From NCBI GenBank assembly GCA_964016885.1, contig OZ024746.1, positions 87,048,001-87,112,000 on the forward strand: a DNA stretch of 64,000 bases, given 5' to 3'. This document shows, one piece after another, positions 3,450 to 57,901 of the stretch; position 1 is the first letter of the stretch, and the number at the start of each line of letters is the position of its first letter. The notes under the pieces are model-generated. The model worked only from the letters and a program-made list of their open reading frames with translations. It was not told the origin of the DNA and made no database searches. The position numbers and the translations under genes are program-made. The stretch is from Eledone cirrhosa. Its lineage: Eukaryota.

Positions 3450-3576
3450 ATGCAATTAATTCATAAACTGTGACAATACAAATAAAAGCATCGACAAATC
3501 ATGCTAATTTGATTATGAATAATTAAGATGCAATTGACAGCTATACATATATAGTGGAAGTATAACCCCTTCAGTA
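3450..3576 (+). promoter_or_regulatory. Putative H2B core promoter: three octamer-like motifs, TATA-like element and TCAGT initiator
   Basis: ATGCAATT at 3450 and 3528 and ATGCTAAT at 3501, each one mismatch from ATGCAAAT. TATACATATATAG at 3542-3554 and TCAGT at 3571. The AT-rich background lowers significance. Confidence 0.4.
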
Positions 3577-3582
3577 CACACA

Positions 3583-3951
3583 ATGCAGCATCAAGTAAGT
3601 TCATCAGTTACTAAGAAACCTGCTAAAGGGAGACCGTCACGTCTTGGTGATAAGAGGCATAAGAAAAGACGCAAGGAAAGTTATGCCATCTACGTGTACA
3701 AAGTATTGAAGCAAGTGCAACCGGACATTGGTATTTCCAGTAAGGCGATGGCTATCATGAACAGCTTTGTCAATGACTTGTTCGAGAGGATCGCTGCCGA
3801 ATCTAGCCGCTTGGCTCAATATAACAAACGTTCCACCATTAGTAGTCGTGAGGTTCAGACTGCTGTGCGCCTTTTGCTTCCAGGAGAACTTGCTAAACAT
3901 GCTGTATCTGAAGGGACCAAGGCTGTTACCAAATATACCAGCAGCAAATAA
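3583..3951 (+). CDS. H2B: Histone H2B, intronless, divergent N-terminal tail, solitary copy
   Basis: 122 aa ORF with the H2B histone fold ([87 protein letters not shown]). No other histone gene in the window. Confidence 0.97.
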
Positions 3952-6820: not shown

Positions 6821-9554
6821 TTCATTGAATAATGTCGGGCTTCAGACTAATCCTAGGCTACCTATACGTTCTAGTAATGTTATCATTTCTATTAGCATTT
6901 TGCTGTCTGCAATATTTAACGTGTATCTCCAATCATTTTCTATATATCTGCCTCTCATTGTTTCTTAACTGTTCTAAAACTATATGCAAAAAATTGAATT
7001 TAAAGGGCCTTCCGACATGAGTGGACAGCGCTTCAATTTCTTTTCTTTAAAAAGTATTTAAAGAAAATTTTAAGACTTTAAGAATGCTACATTATATTTT
7101 AACTAACGTAACTAACATTAACATTGGTGTATCACTTTGTCATTTCTAGGTCTTCTAACAGAATTTACTATCAACTGACCACTACGTGACTCGTTTCTTT
7201 ATTCACAAAACAATTCCATTCCAGATTTTAATGTTTTTATTTACCGCTCAAGCATTGATTATCTCGTTTCTTTCAACGGCAATATACTGTGCACCACTTG
7301 GGTTTTTGTAATGATAGGTATTATAAATGAATGTTATTTGACTTTTTCTTCTAATTGGTAAAACCCCGAAAAAGCACATTTTAGCAAATACTGCCATTTC
7401 CCCTGTATTGTCGCTCAACTGTGGTACACTCAGTGTATATGACTTGCAGAAAATGACAATATAACGTCAGCGGTAAGCGCGGATATTGTCTGGGAATTTG
7501 TCGTCCACGAATTTAGTCGTAAAATCTGAACAGATTTATTGATCTACATCCTCTCCGTGATAAAAATGACTCTAGGATTTGTTGACGCCAGGATCTAAAC
7601 ACTTCCCTTCACACAATTTATACCCCACCCCGCTTAAAAATTGTACATATATTTTTGCTAATGTGTACATCTAAATGGCGTTAGATTATACAATATCTCT
7701 TCATTAGGAAGAATGGGGGGTACGTTGTATCTAAAATAAAATCAGTGTTTTGCCACTTTTTACTGAGTATGTTGTGACTCGGTGATATTTCTACTAGATT
7801 AAGAGAACATTTTGAAATCGCCTTGTGATGTTACAAAGTATTTCAAAAAAAATTATAAAGTTCACTTTGCTGATGTCTAGAGTAGTTTTAAAAGACACCC
7901 AAAGCAGTAAATTTCCTCCACCTAAGGAAATTTGAAATCAACGATTGCACTGTTTTCGAATGTTATAAATAAGAATCAGTGAAGGTGCGGGAAGTAGTGG
8001 TTATGTTGTTGTCCACATGTCTTGGGTTCAGTTCCTGGATAAATAAACTGGGATACATACGAATGTAGTCCAAATGTTTTTAACATGTTAATGTTATCCA
8101 TTATCAAATATTTGTTTCTTATGATTTATTGTTTAACATTCTAACCATGACCATCTCGAAATTTGTTCTAACAAAGTACATTTAGAACTATTCTCTTTCA
8201 CGTTTCTTTGTATTTTAAGATATCGGGGTATGATTACTGAATTTTGATACTTCTAGAAACCTGAGTAATTATAGAAATGTTCTCTTGCTCCCATTCTATC
8301 TACAACGGGTTACTGGAATGTGATAAATGAATACAAAACACAAGCCTTCAGTAAAAGAAATATACTAGTAATAACAATTATTTCTAACTTTGATAGGTTA
8401 ATTTTGAGTTTCATTTAATAGTATTGCACATGGCTGATGTCTCTGTCGAATTTGGTGGCAGTATAAATTCAATTCAAGCAAATTTTCAAATAAAAAAAAA
8501 AAAATAATAATGTCCATCAAACTATTGAAAATGTCATGCACTGCTTCAATAAGGAATAATAATGGTATTTTACAATTAGTGCGAGCGTTAGTTAAATGAA
8601 TTTATTCGAGCGTAAGGAAAATATAATTTCTTTCTCAATCAGAACATTTGAACACACAACGTTATTAATTTTACAAGGTATTTGTTCAGCACTTCATTAA
8701 GAAATTCCTTATTACATATGTCTATATGGGTGAGTGTGTGGTTAGATAAGATATTACCGATACAATTTGCCAGTGTCTTCGACAAAATATATATATTACG
8801 GTAGTTATTTCGTTTAATTTTATCAGTTAAACACTGAAATATGAAGATATGAAATGGTTGTGGAACAGCCTAAGTAAATCTCCCTGCACCGGTTTTTCTT
8901 TCCGACACTGATACACCTAGCCTCTAATAAATTCTACCACTCCCGACGATACTGTGGGCACTGCACTCTTTCTCATAATAGCTAAAACAAATATAGATAA
9001 AAAATATAAAAATAAAGCAATTCTATAGACGATTAATCATTTCAAATCTGTAATCGTAATTGACCTTCCGATATTGTTTCAAATAACCCCAAGAACTAAG
9101 TCATTCTTCTCAATTATTCACTGTTATAGGTCTTATATAATTATAAGTATTCTCATAGTTACATTAATCATCAAATTCGTTAAGTAACCTAACTCTTCTA
9201 TTTAAACTTAAATATGTTGGACAGAATAGAAGTAATTTACTACAACATTTACGAATCTGCTGAAATTCTTATTGACATATAGAAAGCTTTCAAGGAAAAT
9301 CGAAGTTTGGTTGTTTCGATGGAAGAAGGCTATAAGACAATAGGAAGATTCCAATTCGACTTTAATTGCTCATACATAGTAAACTTAGACATACAATTAG
9401 ATGCTGAATTTCAAGCGCACGCACACGCACACAAGCGTACACGCACTCCTACACGGATATAGTTTTCACCTAAAGCATGGCTCAGGAGAGGAATCCCACT
9501 ACAGAAGGGGAAAGAAACTCTCATGCGTGTTACTATAGGCATATATAGTTCTTT

Positions 9555-12417: not shown

Positions 12418-13665
12418 CGACCGGTTTGAAAAAGACATCATAAGTCCTAACTTATTTAAGGTAAAAGCTAACAGTAGCCACCAACCTCTCTAGCGTAGAT
12501 TTCTCAGACATTAATTTAGACCTTCGCACACACACCCACAGACCCTTCCATAAGCTAAACGAGAAACTCAATTACATTCACAAGGACTCCTGCCACCCTC
12601 CCACTGTCTTTAGAAACTTCGTTAAAAATATCAGTACTAGAATCTCAAACCTCTCCTCTACTAAGGCTATCTTTGACAGGGCGGCACCCTACTATAACAC
12701 GGCGTTGGCTAACAGAGGCTTCTCACAACCTATCACTTACTTTCCCACTAGCAACAACACCATTAAGAAAAGTAAGCGCAAAGAAAGACAAACTATCTGG
12801 TTCTCCCCTACTTTCTAACTCAACGTTAAAACCAATGTATGAAAACATTGTATAGCCCTCTTGGATAGACACTTTCCCACAGTTCATAAATACCGCTGCA
12901 TCTTTAACCGACACAAAGTAAAACTAGGATACTCCTGCGCTAATAACATGGAGGCCCATATTACCAGCAGCCCTAGGACCAACATCCCACCAGGGTGCTC
13001 TTGCTGTAAGCCTGAAGCTTGCCCCCTTCAACAGCAATGCAACACACCAGCTGTATTTTTTGAAGCTGTGGTCACTTCCAAACGAACCACAGGAGGTCAA
13101 AGCCTATGTGGGCATGGCGGAGGGCCGATTTAAGGAACGTTTCCAGAACCACCAGTCTACCTTCAGGTTCCCGGACAGATGTTCATCCACGAAACTCGCG
13201 AGCCACGTATGGTCCCTCAAGGACTCAAGTATAGACTACTCCATTCAATGGAAAGCCATCACTAAGTCCAAGCCATACGCAAGGGGAAATCCGACGTGTG
13301 GCTTATGTATTGACGAACGAATAACTATTCTAAAGAGATTACGCAATAGTGATAGCCTAAACACGAGATATGAATTTTTCACACGTTGTCCACACGTCGC
13401 CAAACACCTATTGCATAACTACAGGGCTCCAGACTGATTCTTTGAAATATTAATTTCAACTAAAAACTTTTTGGACTTTCGCAGTTATCTCCCTTACACC
13501 TCTCGCACACATTCTAGTATTGCCTGTGTGAAGTGACCGGGTTTATGCGCCTGCGCATTCGTACGGTTGTCCTTCCTGTTCCTATAACCATGCCCATTCC
13601 GAGCTGAGGATCCGCTAAGGTGAAACAATTTTTCTCGCTATGGTGAACTAACTGTTGTGTAACGA

Positions 13666-15276: not shown

Positions 15277-15354
15277 CGAAGGAGTTGTGGTAAGGACTAG
15301 TCCAGAAATAGCCGTCGAAACGGCTTCAGCTCTGCCGTCGGGGTCATATATTTT

Positions 15355-16254: not shown

Positions 16255-18599
16255 AGAAAACCTGGTGATTATAATTATAACAGGAGGAAGGTAAAGTTCT
16301 GTTGTAGTAGTATTTTAAAATGTTCTTGGATTTAGGTTCAAGTGCTGACAGCAGCTGAGAAGAGATATGCTTATGGGTTGATGAGGTACTTACAGACATT
16401 AGTGTGGTATAGAACTAAGAAGGCTAGAATGTACTTAATGATTATATTTCTGTGGTGGTTCGTGCAGTGTAGTGGGTATCCTAAGTTGAAAGTTAGGTTA
16501 CGTCGGTTCGATTCACGGATGTTTAAATCTTGTGAATTTAGTGGCGATCCTGTGTCTGCAGAAGATAGATCTTTCTAACTTGTTGTTAAGTAGCCCTTTT
16601 ACATTTCTAAGGATATACAGTAATTCTAGATCACATAGCCTACAGTGGGACATACCGGTACTATAGGTCTTTGCGGCCGACAACCTCGACCAGTTGATAC
16701 TGTAGTCGGTGTTGTTGTCCTTAAGTTCCCAGATTTTTTTGGCGAGGGTTGTAGAACCGATAAGTGCACAATTTTACATCGAGTGTCTGTGCACATACCA
16801 TCTTTTTTTAAAGGTACCCGCGGTGGATCCAATGTAATGCCAAGTGGAGTTGTCTGAGCTGACCGTACACATGTACACTAGGCTCGAATAGAGGCATCTA
16901 TTCGCCAATGGGCACCTATCCGGTAGGTGACAGTTACAGTTTGAGGTGTTATTTCGTGCAACTTCTTTTGTACACTTGCTATAAGTGGGTTGTGATTCAT
17001 GGCCGTTGGGGTTTTGCTGCTGCGTGCTTGTATGCGCTTGCGGTTGTGATACTGTGATGTGTTTATGCTTATAATTTGGTGCTATTTTGCGCATAGGTGG
17101 GGCGGATTCCCTAGATATATTTCTGTGGTTGATCTTGCGTATGTGCGATTCTATATTTGCTGCCGTTGAGTATGAGAGTTTTATAGTGTTTCTATTGAGT
17201 ATTTTATTATATCTGTGTGAAATAGGGAAGTGTTTATTTATTAGTTTAAAGAATGTAGAAGGCAGTCTGGTTTTTACAGAGGAGTTGAAGATTCGGTTGA
17301 ACCATAGGTATTTTCTTTCTCTGATTCTTCTATTGTTTCTAGGGTTTACATTATTAGTGTTTGGACCGCTTGCTCTAGGTGCTACGTACCTAACCCTATG
17401 TCTAGTCCTGTTACCTCTATTTTTATGTGAGCGGTTGGTGTAATTGTTATTAGGTTTGTTTAAGTTGTCTTTATTCGCTATATACTGCAGTTTATCTTTA
17501 TGTCCAGCCCTATGTAATGTTGCGTTATAATAGTTAGCATGTTCATTAAAAATTTCTAGGTTTGAGGATAAGCGGCATATTCTAAGGGATATACTACGTG
17601 CTATGGATCTAATTATGGATTTGAGGTGGTTTGAGTTATAACTAATGTAGGGCAGATTTTCATTATTTTTGTGGAAAGGTTCTATTAATCCCGTATTTAG
17701 ATTTAGAGTCACATCTAGAAAGTTTACCTTCTTATGGTTCAGTTCGTAGGTAATACTTAGGCCTAGTTTTTTGAAGAATGATCTAATGTTTTTTTCTTAA
17801 TCTTTCCATCACTCTGGTTGTTTAAGTTCTTAGCTATAAGGAGCGTGTCGTCTCTATAAATCCCCCCTTGGAGGTTACTGAATTCCTTATGTAGGTTGTG
17901 TGCTATGAATAGCCCCACGATGTCAGTGATTTGCGCAGAGTCATTTGATCACATTGTTATATCGAAGCTGTTTATCCTATCTCTTCTTACCCAGTAGCTA
18001 TTTTCAAATTGTATGATAGTCTTTCTAGCCGCTATTATTATTTCAATTTCCTCAGGGGTAAGATCGGAGTTATTTTGGGCAAATATAAGCGTTTTATCTA
18101 GGGTGGCTGGGGATATGGATGCATAGTAGTCATTTATATCAAATTGTATGAAGTTACATATCTCCCTATTTCGTATTTTATTGAACCATTTAATCGCCTC
18201 GTTAGTGTTACCCCATAAATTGATTTCTAGTTTACCCTTTATTTGTGCGATTACTCTATCTAGAATGTTCTTGCTAATTTTACCTATATCTGATTTAGAT
18301 GGGCATATTAATATAATAGTAGGGTTTGTTTCAACATTATTTTTGTGATGTTTCAGGTTAAATGTGGGGTTGCATGGGGTTAGAGGCACGGTCCTATCAG
18401 GTATTCCGAGTTTATTTACTATCCTAAGACCCTCCACGTTAATGCTGGTGAGTGTGGATTCGTTTGTTTTTTTTTTGTATTTTTTATACTGTTTATGCTG
18501 GATAAAATACTTAGCCAAGCGTTGATCTCATCCACTACCCGGAGTACCATAACTGGACTACACTTAAGTGGACTACCTATAACAATAATGTGTTACCCC

Positions 18600-18600
<1 letters not shown>
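16255..18600 (-). mobile_element. Decayed Penelope-like retroelement (RT with YRDD, CNC..CPL..C linker, GIY-YIG), flanked by (TA)n
   Basis: ORF 17949-18518 has LICPSKSDIGKISK..FIQFDINDYYASI..FDITM*, continuing S-NDSAQITDIVGL..GGIYRDD. ORF 16774-17712 has HFPISHRYNKILNRNTIKLSYS..CNCHLPDRCPLANRCL..VYMCTV..YIGST..FKKRW. A shifted frame gives WELKDNNTDYSINW..CRLCDLE..CRH. Confidence 0.92.
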
Positions 18601-22490
<3,890 letters not shown>

Positions 22491-39721: not shown

Positions 39722-39917
39722 GGAAAAAGTATGATCCCGACGGCAGAGCTCAAGCCGTTTCGACGGCTATTTCTGGGCATAGTCCAGAAACAGCTGTCGA
39801 AACGGCTTGAGCTTTGCCGTCGGGGTCATACTTTTTTCGATTACCAACTCTACTACCTTAAGTATTGAGTATCCTGGTGCGTTATGGTCCATCTGGTTCC
39901 TTACCACAACTCCTTCG

Positions 39918-55822: not shown

Positions 55823-56165
55823 CCCTCGAAACGACTTGAGTTCTGCCGTCGGCGTCTTGAACATTTTCCTATATATATATATATTTTTATACTTTGGTGG
55901 GAGGGTCGTGTTGCCGATAATAACACACGCTTCTGTTGGTTTTCACTTTAATTTAGTATACATTTCCGTTAGTTGGTTGATAAACAGAAGGTTGTTTATA
56001 TATTGTCAAAACTCTTTTGTCACACATTCTGAGATAAAATGGTGTAGGTCAGAACAAAGGATGGACACACAAAATAAAAACCTACTCACTGTGGAGGTCA
56101 CGGAACATTTGATGAAAGAGCTTTGACAATTTACAAACAACCTTCCGGTTATCGAACCAATTATT

Positions 56166-56223
56166 ATACAATGAACATTTCAATAACCGGGTTCAGTATG
56201 AATCCGGTGACATCATCAGGTAT
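56166..56223 (-). ncRNA. Type I hammerhead, inverted partner copy
   Basis: The reverse complement reads ATAC-CTGATGA-TGTCACCGG..CCGGTTATT-GAAA-TGTTC-ATT-GTAT. Confidence 0.65.
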
Positions 56224-56391
56224 TCGAAATTTAACAAAGGAATATAATAGATACAATCCATGGGCTGAACAGGCAAAGAGACAAGACGGCGACCACACAC
56301 TAGAAACTGCTATATGTTTGGTCACCTTCTTGTCTGTCTGCCTATTCAGCCCCATGGGTTGTGTCTATTATATTCCTTTGTTATATTTCGG

Positions 56392-56449
56392 ATACCTGAT
56401 GATGTCACCGGATTTATACTGAACCCGGTCATTGAAATGTTCATTGTAT
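56392..56449 (+). ncRNA. Type I hammerhead with intact core
   Basis: ATAC-CTGATGA-TGtcACCGG..CCGGTCAtt-GAAA-T-GTTC-ATT-GTAT. Confidence 0.7.
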
Positions 56450-56492
56450 AATAAACGTTTAAGGAATTACACCAGTCCTGCCTCCTGTTATT

Positions 56493-56547
<55 letters not shown>

Positions 56548-57002
56548 TACTGAACAAAGATAGAATACAAAAACAAAAACATATACACTCAAACAGGAAC
56601 ACTTACCCCAAACAGGAAAAGCACACGCATACACATGCACAAACAGAGACAGAGAAAGGACTAAATAAATAAATAAAATTAAAATGGCGTAGGCATTATA
56701 ATATAACGGGAGGAAATATAATAGTTCCACTGATGATGTCAACGATGTGTGATGAAATAACTTTCATAGACTATATATATATATATATTTATATCTGTAT
56801 TTTTAACCTTTAGTCGATCACTGATAAACATTGATTGCCAGATAAATCAACTATGAAGATATAAAAGATACAGAAGCTAAAACCAACTCAAACCAAACAC
56901 TGAGTGTGTTCTGTTATTATTTCTGGCAATATTATAAGAATATGACCCTCACCAAGCATACGCATATTTATTTCGACACACGATTTCATATAAGAAACCT
57001 TG

Positions 57003-57136: not shown

Positions 57137-57340
57137 AGAAGGAGTTGTGGTAAGAAACCAGATGGACCATAACGCACCAGAGTACTCAATACTTAGGGTA
57201 GTAGAGTGGGTAATAGGACATTGTATGACCCTGACGGCAGAGCTCAAGCCGTTTCGACGGCTATTTCTGGACTAAAAAGAATTTAGTCCAGAAATAGCCG
57301 TCGAAACGGCTTGAGCTCTGCCGTCCGGGTCATACATTTT
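57137..57340 (-). mobile_element. Short fold-back element (family P1), reverse copy
   Basis: Reverse complement of 39722-39918. Arms about 57222-57276 and 57282-57336, flanked by (TA)n and (TG)n. Confidence 0.85.
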
Positions 57341-57385: not shown

Positions 57386-57616
57386 TGTGTGTGTGTGTGT
57401 ATTGAAGTGAAATATCAGGTGGCCAAAGATGATGAATTTTCATAAATATTTATTTCTGCACACACTATGACGGCACGGCATAGTAAGTACATGATGCTTC
57501 GTTCACCTCTTAGTCAAAAACGAAAACATAAAACCATCTTTTCATCTCTGCTTTTTCTTTGCTTGTTCCCTTAAAGGTTATCTTCCTTCCGTTAGTATAC
57601 ATTTATTACGCAGTTT

Positions 57617-57675
57617 GGACCTGAAGATGTCACCGGGTTTTTACGCAACCTGGCCACTGAAATGTACATAAGGTT
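57617..57675 (+). ncRNA. Hammerhead related to the 56392 family
   Basis: CTGAAGA-TGTCACCGGG..CCTGGCCACT-GAAA-TGTAC-ATA, with palindromic TGTACA. Stem I is poor. Confidence 0.55.
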
Positions 57676-57901
57676 TGCTGAAATTATATATTTAAAGAAA
57701 TTCAATAGTTTTGGCATCCTGTTATTTCATTTTGTAATATATTTATTCCGTTACCTCCCGCACCACCAACGTGATTCAACATCTGAGATAAATGAGTTAC
57801 ATAACGTCGAGTGGTTTTCTCATATTACGTCACAGTTAACATTTCAGAATGACCAATTCTACCCAGTGTTAAAGCACCGAATTAAAACCTATATATATAC
57901 A

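What the first reader, a model, noticed from the sequence alone, without database searches (positions are those of the whole stretch)
56161..56497. 294-bp hairpin carrying an intact-core hammerhead on each strand
Seen: two arms of about 140 bp around a loop of about 14 nt, each with CTGATGA, a long stem II (ACCGG..CCGGT), GAAA, a short stem III and an ATT triplet. A 40-nt tail on one side runs to (TA)n, and a related single HHR lies 1.2 kb away (57617). Many arm mismatches are transitions. Inference: an inverted pLTR pair. A transcript from either strand would be a rod-like RNA containing a ribozyme and its antisense, reminiscent of ambisense viroid-like RNAs, and could self-inhibit or feed Dicer/ADAR.
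Basis: partly seen in the sequence, partly recalled or inferred. Interest (0 to 1): 0.75.

Follow-up and report, generated by a model that had tools for sequence, protein, structure and literature searches.

The report
Penelope retrotransposon hairpin, copied whole
This hairpin is two head-to-head stubs of a Penelope-type jumping gene, a common and already described leftover that likely forms when the element's RNA is copied from both sides of a DNA break; it is not viroid-like, but it has a near-twin on another chromosome, so it was likely copied once as a whole.

Summary
The hairpin is real (z -25.9). It is a cut-down copy of a dispersed, non-coding Penelope-like family: 1,992 exact cores, ~2.07-kb monomers in partial tandems, (TA)n targets. 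Dual opposite-strand hammerheads and inverted 5' copies of Penelope elements are published, and this scan noted the same architecture in other families of this genome. The '40-nt tail' is outer arm whose partner was deleted. The ribozyme is a minimal, dimer-type variant (U-U at 10.1-11.1; derived AUU site; no Rfam match); the hairpin would lock it shut by ~80 kcal/mol. No circular monomer, no editing footprint, no expression data. Mechanistic signals: pairs are one long plus one short arm (36 of 38), 5' ends cluster at one start, and copies joined there carry an extra G (30 of 30 G copies start there), predicted cap copying. Peculiar to this locus: a sister hairpin on another contig shares the junction (2 hits genome-wide) and rare arm-specific changes, so a finished hairpin was likely copied whole, by RNA or DNA; five other junctions tested were unique.

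The parts
56161..56299 (-). Left arm: inverted pLTR stub, cut at its outer end 8 nt past the predicted cleavage site; by its arm-specific variant it corresponds to the long (tail-bearing) arm of the sister hairpin
56300..56497 (+). Right arm: pLTR stub that carries the loop and ends at the family's short 3' end
56293..56308 (.). Arm-to-arm junction inside the element's own 5' stem-loop; found at only two places in the genome (here and G000:C3:255956886)
56300..56314 (+). Hairpin loop = loop of the predicted 5'-terminal stem-loop of the element RNA, kept once
56392..56449 (+). Minimal type I hammerhead variant (helix I 4 bp, core 56396-56402, long helix II, GAAA 56434, predicted cut after 56445)
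56166..56223 (-). Mirror-image hammerhead variant (core starts 56219, predicted cut between 56170 and 56169)
56455..56497 (+).
56499..56542 (.). (TA)n target microsatellite at the short end
   Evidence: same flank in nearly all copies
55870..56160 (.). Older head-to-head pLTR pair of a different Penelope family (B); its right arm is cut mid-pLTR where the hairpin begins (locus-specific junction)
57607..57888 (+).

Best explanation
The hairpin is a truncated head-to-head pair of pseudo-LTR stubs of a non-coding Penelope-like family inserted in (TA)n, likely made when a borrowed Penelope RT/endonuclease copied the element RNA from both sides of a break, and this particular hairpin was then likely copied once as a whole. 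Steps: (1, shown) the parent is a ~2.07-kb non-coding monomer in partial tandems with two 3' ends ~145 nt apart. (2, inferred) transcription starts at a fixed site ~116 nt upstream of the HHR core, and the RNA opens with a GC-rich stem-loop. (3, inferred from PAc biochemistry) a Penelope protein supplied in trans cuts both strands of (TA)n; one end is primed from the short start site, the other from the long one. (4, inferred) both cDNAs run to or near the cap, often adding a cap-templated base, and join through the stem halves or by microhomology, giving one long and one short arm with the loop kept once. (5, shown as relationship, route inferred) a finished hairpin whose arms had already diverged gave rise to the copies at C6 (this window) and C3; a deletion removed the left end here. 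(6, predicted) the HHR works, if at all, as a protein-assisted dimer on tandem RNA; in hairpin read-through RNA it would be locked shut. The hairpin is most likely a by-product with no job.
For: Family size and dispersal: 84 matches from 40 scored of 1,599 candidates; 1,992 exact cores, control 0; 34 head-to-head loci, control 0. Partial tandems and non-coding monomer. Long+short pairing: 36 of 38 classifiable pairs vs 0.48 expected, p 5e-10; 64 of 70 in all held loci; in the first 53 cores of C1, 17 of 19 hits with a partner were long+short, none long-long or short-short. An ORF-bearing family-B element shows the same asymmetry (L129/L130). Arms share subfamily markers at 361 of 389 sites vs 63% shuffled. 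23 of 53 5' ends fall at -118..-95. Of 184 copies with the start motif, 35 have G before it; 30 of 30 examined start there and 19 are joined to a partner, against 4 of 30 A/T copies (Fisher p 1.4e-4). 37 distinct junction signatures among 40 pairs and 5 of 5 tested junctions unique show hairpins mostly arise anew. Sister: junction at 2 places only, rare arm-specific changes shared in the same arms, unrelated flanks. Literature: PMC8557442, PMC3846280, PMC4209133, PMC11167929.
Against: No autonomous partner sharing this pLTR was found. The tail is ~145 nt, not the 30-40 nt described. 5 long-long and 1 short-short pairs exist among 79. The G could come from RT terminal addition or junction microhomology rather than a cap; the 19 of 19 C copies that run into the body were partly found with a body query. 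No RNA evidence at all. The sister relationship rests on one pair of loci; two insertions from a master with two slightly different pLTRs are not formally excluded.
Confidence: 0.68

Rival explanations
1. Same element, but the inverted arm is made by snap-back self-priming of a single cDNA at the 5' stem-loop, which then copies itself back to a TA-rich site.
For: Junctions concentrate in the internal stem; self-priming is the published proposal (PMC3846280); arms share subfamily.
Against: The loop is carried by the long arm in some pairs and the short arm in others; short-ended single copies are common (16 of 48); partner arms of any length are joined to a G-started arm with no palindrome at the joint.
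Confidence: 0.17
2. The hairpin is a DNA-level product: a foldback/MITE-like element or a replication fold-back inversion of a single pLTR after insertion.
For: This one hairpin was copied whole, and (TA)n on both flanks would allow templated repair or ectopic conversion; neither copy shows editing; one arm-to-arm conversion is implied in the sister (C3>U in both arms).
Against: Variable 5' truncation over >1.6 kb, partial tandems, fixed long/short asymmetry and an extra G at a fixed start all point to reverse transcription; junctions are mostly unique. A DNA route stays open only for the secondary copying step.
Confidence: 0.07
3. A viroid-like ambisense RNA: the hairpin is transcribed, cleaves in both polarities and replicates as a rod-like circle.
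For: One HHR motif on each strand and a rod-like fold.
Against: One HHR per strand gives no unit-length monomer; no tandem hairpins among 79 pairs; the HHR is locked by 79-86 kcal/mol and needs a same-strand partner (PMC4209133); such agents have no DNA counterpart (PMC10162972); no relative among 41 viral-contig motif hits.
Confidence: 0.02
4. A host-selected hairpin RNA source feeding Dicer or ADAR to silence the family.
For: About a third of sampled cores have an inverted partner (19 of 53), so read-through would give long dsRNA; earlier notes report edited hairpins in other families.
Against: Arms decay at the neutral rate (4.6% within locus; 73 one-arm vs 7 both-arm private changes); no polarised A>G (49 vs 225 other changes, at most 4 on one strand in a locus).
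Confidence: 0.06

Closest known systems
Canonical EN+ Penelope-like element insertions with an inverted 5'-truncated copy and a tail at one end (Craig et al. 2021, PMC8557442, passages; Arkhipova et al. 2013, PMC3846280, passages)
   Same: Head-to-head pLTRs, partial tandems, 5' truncation, tail on one arm, palindrome at the inverted junction, (TA)n targets, non-autonomous derivatives moved in trans.
   Different: No ORF in the 2.07-kb monomer; tail ~145 nt rather than 30-40; asymmetry and fixed G-marked start quantified here; one hairpin recopied whole.
Minimal hammerheads of metazoan PLEs (Cervera and de la Pena 2014, PMC4209133, text parts 1-2 of 4)
   Same: Long helix II, 4-bp helix I, palindromic helix III/loop 3, predicted dimer; that paper already reports dual min-HHRs 100-700 bp apart on opposite strands.
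   Different: U at 11.1 with U (or G/A) opposite instead of the conserved G10.1-C11.1; this copy has AUU and a weakened palindrome (-1.8 vs -7.2 kcal/mol). A natural U10.1-U11.1 variant is known to cleave (PMC3088659, passage).
Poseidon_Ac (PAc) in vitro (Frangieh et al. 2024, PMC11167929, text parts 1-2 of 4)
   Same: Two RT start sites that define the tail; both target strands cut and extended; AT-rich targets; HHR protein-assisted and not needed for insertion.
   Different: That work does not explain inverted copies; the start sites here are ~145 nt apart and the element is non-coding.
Metazoan non-LTR retrozymes (bioRxiv 10.64898/2026.07.22.740005, part 1 of 5; PMC7229834, listing only)
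   Same: Non-coding, type I HHR, derived from PLE pLTRs.
   Different: Retrozymes are head-to-tail arrays of short units; this is an inverted pair of stubs of a 2-kb monomer.
Ambisense viroid-like circular RNAs (PMC10162972, passages)
   Same: Rod-like fold with a ribozyme motif in each polarity.
   Different: No circle, no unit-length monomer, arms are mirror copies, resides in chromosomal DNA.

Membership tests
Penelope-like element (EN+, canonical structure) | Partial tandem forming pLTRs | tested here: met
   pLTR-body-pLTR in L084, L086 and most of L143-L163
Penelope-like element (EN+, canonical structure) | Variable 5' truncation and inverted 5' copy | tested here: met
Penelope-like element (EN+, canonical structure) | Tail at one end only (two 3' ends) | tested here: met
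   36 of 38 pairs long+short; (TA)n loose ends at both sites in runs X1, X2; tail is ~145 nt, longer than described
Penelope-like element (EN+, canonical structure) | (TA)n target and HHR in the pLTR | tested here: met
Penelope-like element (EN+, canonical structure) | RT plus GIY-YIG ORF (autonomy) | tested here: not met
   Longest ORF 124 aa; no tblastn match to three local Penelope-type ORFs. Filed as a non-autonomous derivative; partner and clade not identified
Penelope-like element (EN+, canonical structure) | Target-site duplication | not testable with these tools
   Ends lie inside (TA)n
PLE minimal hammerhead | CUGANGA, GAAA, UH core | tested here: met
PLE minimal hammerhead | Helix I 4-5 bp and long helix II, conserved as structure | tested here: met
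   87% cells paired vs 26-39% in slid controls; helix I U-A/C-G swap between sister families; few independent events
PLE minimal hammerhead | G10.1-C11.1 closing pair after one extra base | tested here: not met
   U-U in 42 of 49, G-U or A-U in 7; next pair G-U in this family and G-C in the sister
PLE minimal hammerhead | Palindromic helix III/loop 3 for dimer | tested here: inconclusive
   Perfect in older subfamilies (-7.2 kcal/mol), two U-U mismatches in this copy (-1.8)
PLE minimal hammerhead | Self-cleavage | not testable with these tools
   Needs assay; related single motifs did not cleave (PMC4209133)
Viroid-like ambisense circular RNA | Unit-length monomer cut out by same-polarity ribozymes | tested here: not met
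   One HHR per strand; no tandem hairpins among 79 pairs
Viroid-like ambisense circular RNA | No DNA counterpart | tested here: not met
   Chromosomal repeat family
Viroid-like ambisense circular RNA | Circles of both polarities in vivo | not testable with these tools
   No RNA run listed
Non-LTR retrozyme | Head-to-tail array of short HHR units | tested here: not met
   Inverted pair; parent monomer 2.07 kb
MITE / foldback DNA transposon | Symmetric terminal inverted repeats and a fixed internal junction | tested here: not met
   Asymmetric ends; 37 junction signatures in 40 pairs

The most novel reading that the evidence does not exclude
Penelope's long-unexplained inverted ends come from two-ended copying of one capped RNA from two fixed start sites, joined through the RNA's 5' stem-loop; and the finished hairpin stubs can themselves be re-mobilised through RNA by the Penelope RT, as a second generation of palindromic non-autonomous elements, of which this locus and its C3 sister are a first pair.
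Probability: 0.3. Interest if true: 0.55.

Novelty: new member of a known kind. Interest (0 to 1): 0.32.

Why it matters
The structure itself is published and abundant. Its value is as a test bed: how Penelope elements make inverted ends is called an open question in PMC8557442, and this family gives countable predictions (fixed start with an extra G, long+short pairing, stem-mediated joints) that one 5'-RACE and one in-vitro reaction can test. The sister pair shows that a finished hairpin can move again and that arms can convert each other, which matters for dating such insertions by arm divergence.

Tried and rejected
Rfam at gathering (whole window) and at E<=10 (two stretches): no hammerhead; only generic hairpin matches. 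No RNA holder listed; X1 and X2 are contigs of unknown kind from one sample, did not cover the loop and say nothing on expression. A covariance model was built but this genome cannot be searched with one, so diverged HHR families were not surveyed. Autonomous partner: none found beside long copies or among local Penelope ORFs. Pfam and PDB gave almost nothing for the local ORFs (RVT_1 at E 0.002 only); their Penelope identity rests on motifs read by eye and on homologues named RT- or GIY-YIG-containing. An apparent 5' hot spot 29 nt upstream of the core was an artefact of a deletion in my reference copy and was dropped (vs 71). General concerted evolution of arms: rejected (partner nearest for both arms in 4 of 39). 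ADAR footprint: not found. Twin small hairpins behind the two 3' ends (earlier notes): a weak stem follows the long end and a variable fold follows the short end; inconclusive. 5' ends at the HHR cut: two partner arms begin within about 2 nt of it, too few to count. Assembly fold-back artefact: rejected, arms differ by 6.6% and the family recurs. Viral contigs: 41 16-mer hits, none extends beyond 23 nt. Supplements of the papers were not opened; PMC4209133 and PMC8557442 supplements may list this HHR variant or family.

Full report
Observation. The hairpin is there: arms 56161-56299 and 56315-56454, a 15-nt centre, MFE -215.7 kcal/mol, z -25.9 against 100 shuffles. The arms differ at 11 positions in 134 columns, 8 of them transitions. 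Each strand carries CUGAUGA, a long helix II, GAAA and AUU. Rfam finds no hammerhead at gathering score in the window or at E<=10 in two stretches, so ribozyme status rests on anatomy.

It is a family. The window is G000:C6:87048001-87112000 in a 3.0-Gb genome; the best homologue of a Penelope-type protein from it is an Octopus vulgaris protein at 66%. The 337-nt query gave 84 matches from 40 scored of 1,599 candidates. A 16-mer of the core occurs 1,992 times (control 0), and 34 loci hold two exact cores head-to-head 165-195 nt apart (control 0). In the first 53 cores listed on C1, taken without choice, 19 had an inverted partner within 700 bp; short partners were missed, so this is a floor. 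At 56160/56161 an older pLTR pair of another family (B) is cut mid-arm; none of the other 39 scored places has this joint.

Parent element. Upstream of the loop the unit runs on with variable truncation to a ~2.07-kb monomer that stands in partial tandems, pLTR-body-pLTR. It has no ORF above 124 aa and no tblastn match to three local Penelope-type ORFs. Ends lie on (TA)n at two fixed sites ~145 nt apart, in the assembly and in loose ends of two public runs of unknown kind. These are the features given for Penelope-like insertions in PMC8557442 (passages) and PMC3846280 (passages): partial tandems, an inverted 5' copy, a tail at one end, palindromes at the joint. PMC4209133 (parts 1-2 of 4) already reports dual minimal hammerheads 100-700 bp apart on opposite strands. 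No autonomous partner was found, so the clade is not assigned.

The ribozyme. Across 49 copies of this family and its ~70%-identical sister (the 57621 motif), 87% of cells pair against 26-39% in slid controls, with a U-A/C-G swap in helix I; these are few independent events. The closing pair of helix II is U-U in 42 of 49, not G10.1-C11.1; such a natural variant cleaves (PMC3088659, passage). Helix III is the palindromic dimer type: -7.2 kcal/mol in older subfamilies, -1.8 in this copy. AUU is derived from AUA and occurs in 6 exact hits at 5 loci. Related single motifs did not cleave in vitro, and the PAc hammerhead needs protein and is dispensable for insertion (PMC11167929, parts 1-2 of 4). 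In hairpin RNA the antisense arm is made first on either strand, and opening the ribozyme costs 79-86 kcal/mol against 8 in the lone arm. Self-inhibition is thus predicted, but only if the locus is read through, for which there are no data.

How the hairpins form. Of 40 pairs, 36 were long+short, 1 long-long, 1 short-short and 2 truncated; 48 single hits were 25 long, 16 short, 7 other (three of the 48 were sister-family hits); independent choice predicts 0.48, p 5e-10. All held loci gave 64, 5, 1 and 9. An ORF-bearing family-B element shows the same pattern. Arms match in subfamily at 361 of 389 sites against 63% shuffled and differ by 4.6% within against 8.5% between loci. The unit has its own GC-rich stem-loop exactly at the hairpin centre, and 23 of 53 5' ends fall in its 5' half. 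Following earlier notes on other families, I tested for a capped start: of 184 copies with the start motif, 35 have G before it, 36 A or T, hence 113 C. All 30 G copies examined begin there and 19 join a partner arm; of 30 A/T copies 27 scored as beginning there, mostly on (TA)n, and 4 join a partner (p 1.4e-4). The 19 held C copies all continue into the body, a set biased by my body query. The loop sits on the long arm in some pairs and the short arm in others. With PAc's two start sites and extension of both strands, the simplest model is two cDNAs primed from the two sides of a break, one per start site, running to the cap and joining through the stem or by microhomology. Snap-back self-priming fits the stem but not the other points as well. 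That Penelope RT lacks RNase H, so one RNA could serve twice, is recalled, not from a call.

What is peculiar here. Junctions are mostly one-offs: 37 signatures in 40 pairs, and five idiosyncratic junctions searched with one mismatch each returned only their own locus. The window's junction occurs twice, here and at C3:255956886. The two hairpins are 93% alike, share two rare changes in both arms, and share rare changes confined to the same single arm (two seen in no other held locus, one in two); their flanks are unrelated. Among 6,006 locus-pair comparisons only one other reached three shared arm differences, in flipped order and with a different junction. The other three loci with the AUU change are unrelated subfamilies. 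So a hairpin whose arms had already diverged was likely copied whole. The sister also has one core change in both arms that the window lacks, implying arm-to-arm conversion afterwards. The route is open: RNA copied in trans, or DNA repair templated through the flanking (TA)n. Neither copy shows polarised A>G, nor does the family (49 against 225 other changes). My literature searches turned up no report of cap-marked two-ended priming or of recopied Penelope hairpins; supplements were not read. Earlier scan notes describe the two-ended, capped-start model and hairpins carried in RNA for other families; none lies near this locus or matches its sequence.

Viroid analogy. Ambisense viroid-like RNAs are circles cut from multimers by ribozymes of each polarity and have no DNA form (PMC10162972, passages). 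Here each strand has one motif, no tandem hairpins were seen, and the element is chromosomal. It does not work like one.

Verdict. A real but known kind of structure: a new non-autonomous Penelope-like family member. The mechanistic counts repeat what this scan has seen in other families and confirm it in this one; the recopied hairpin is the one local surprise. Interest 0.32.

Noticed in passing
window 55870-56160: Older head-to-head pLTR pair of Penelope family B with a decayed classic min-HHR; arms about 81% alike; right arm cut where the finding begins.
   Followed up: yes
window 56676-56997: Single pLTR of a family-B relative with HHR at 56730 and its long 3' end at (TA)n.
   Followed up: partly
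window 57139-57331 (also near 15311, 39767-39793, 55822): A third palindrome-plus-extension family between microsatellites, near-perfect 100-bp hairpin, HHR-like but non-canonical core.
   Followed up: no
L129:5231-9899 with L130 (G000:C1:21.39 Mb): Penelope-type element with a 1,019+ aa open frame, an Asn-rich insert, and an inverted 5' copy; the inverted copy ends at the long site and the main copy at the short site. Best homologue is an Octopus vulgaris protein at 66%.
   Followed up: partly
window 12928-13437 (+), 16774-18527 (-): Broken Penelope-type RT/GIY-YIG remnants; an HHR-like motif at 13604.
   Followed up: no
window 3538-3951 (+): Intronless histone H2B-like frame.
   Followed up: no
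window about 18550-22450: A ~4-kb nearly pure TA tract (GC 0.2% over 20001-22000).
   Followed up: no
L084:8290-8515 and 8600-8830: The 2.07-kb monomer holds an internal ~230-bp GC-richer direct repeat at 77% identity, function unexamined.
   Followed up: no
L251-L253 (G000:C2:338.37-338.46 Mb): One copy repeated with its flank every ~44 kb, i.e. inside a large tandem duplication.
   Followed up: no
L088/L090 (G000:C2:149.05-149.08 Mb): Two inverted copies flanking kilobases of degenerate telomere-like hexamer repeat.
   Followed up: no
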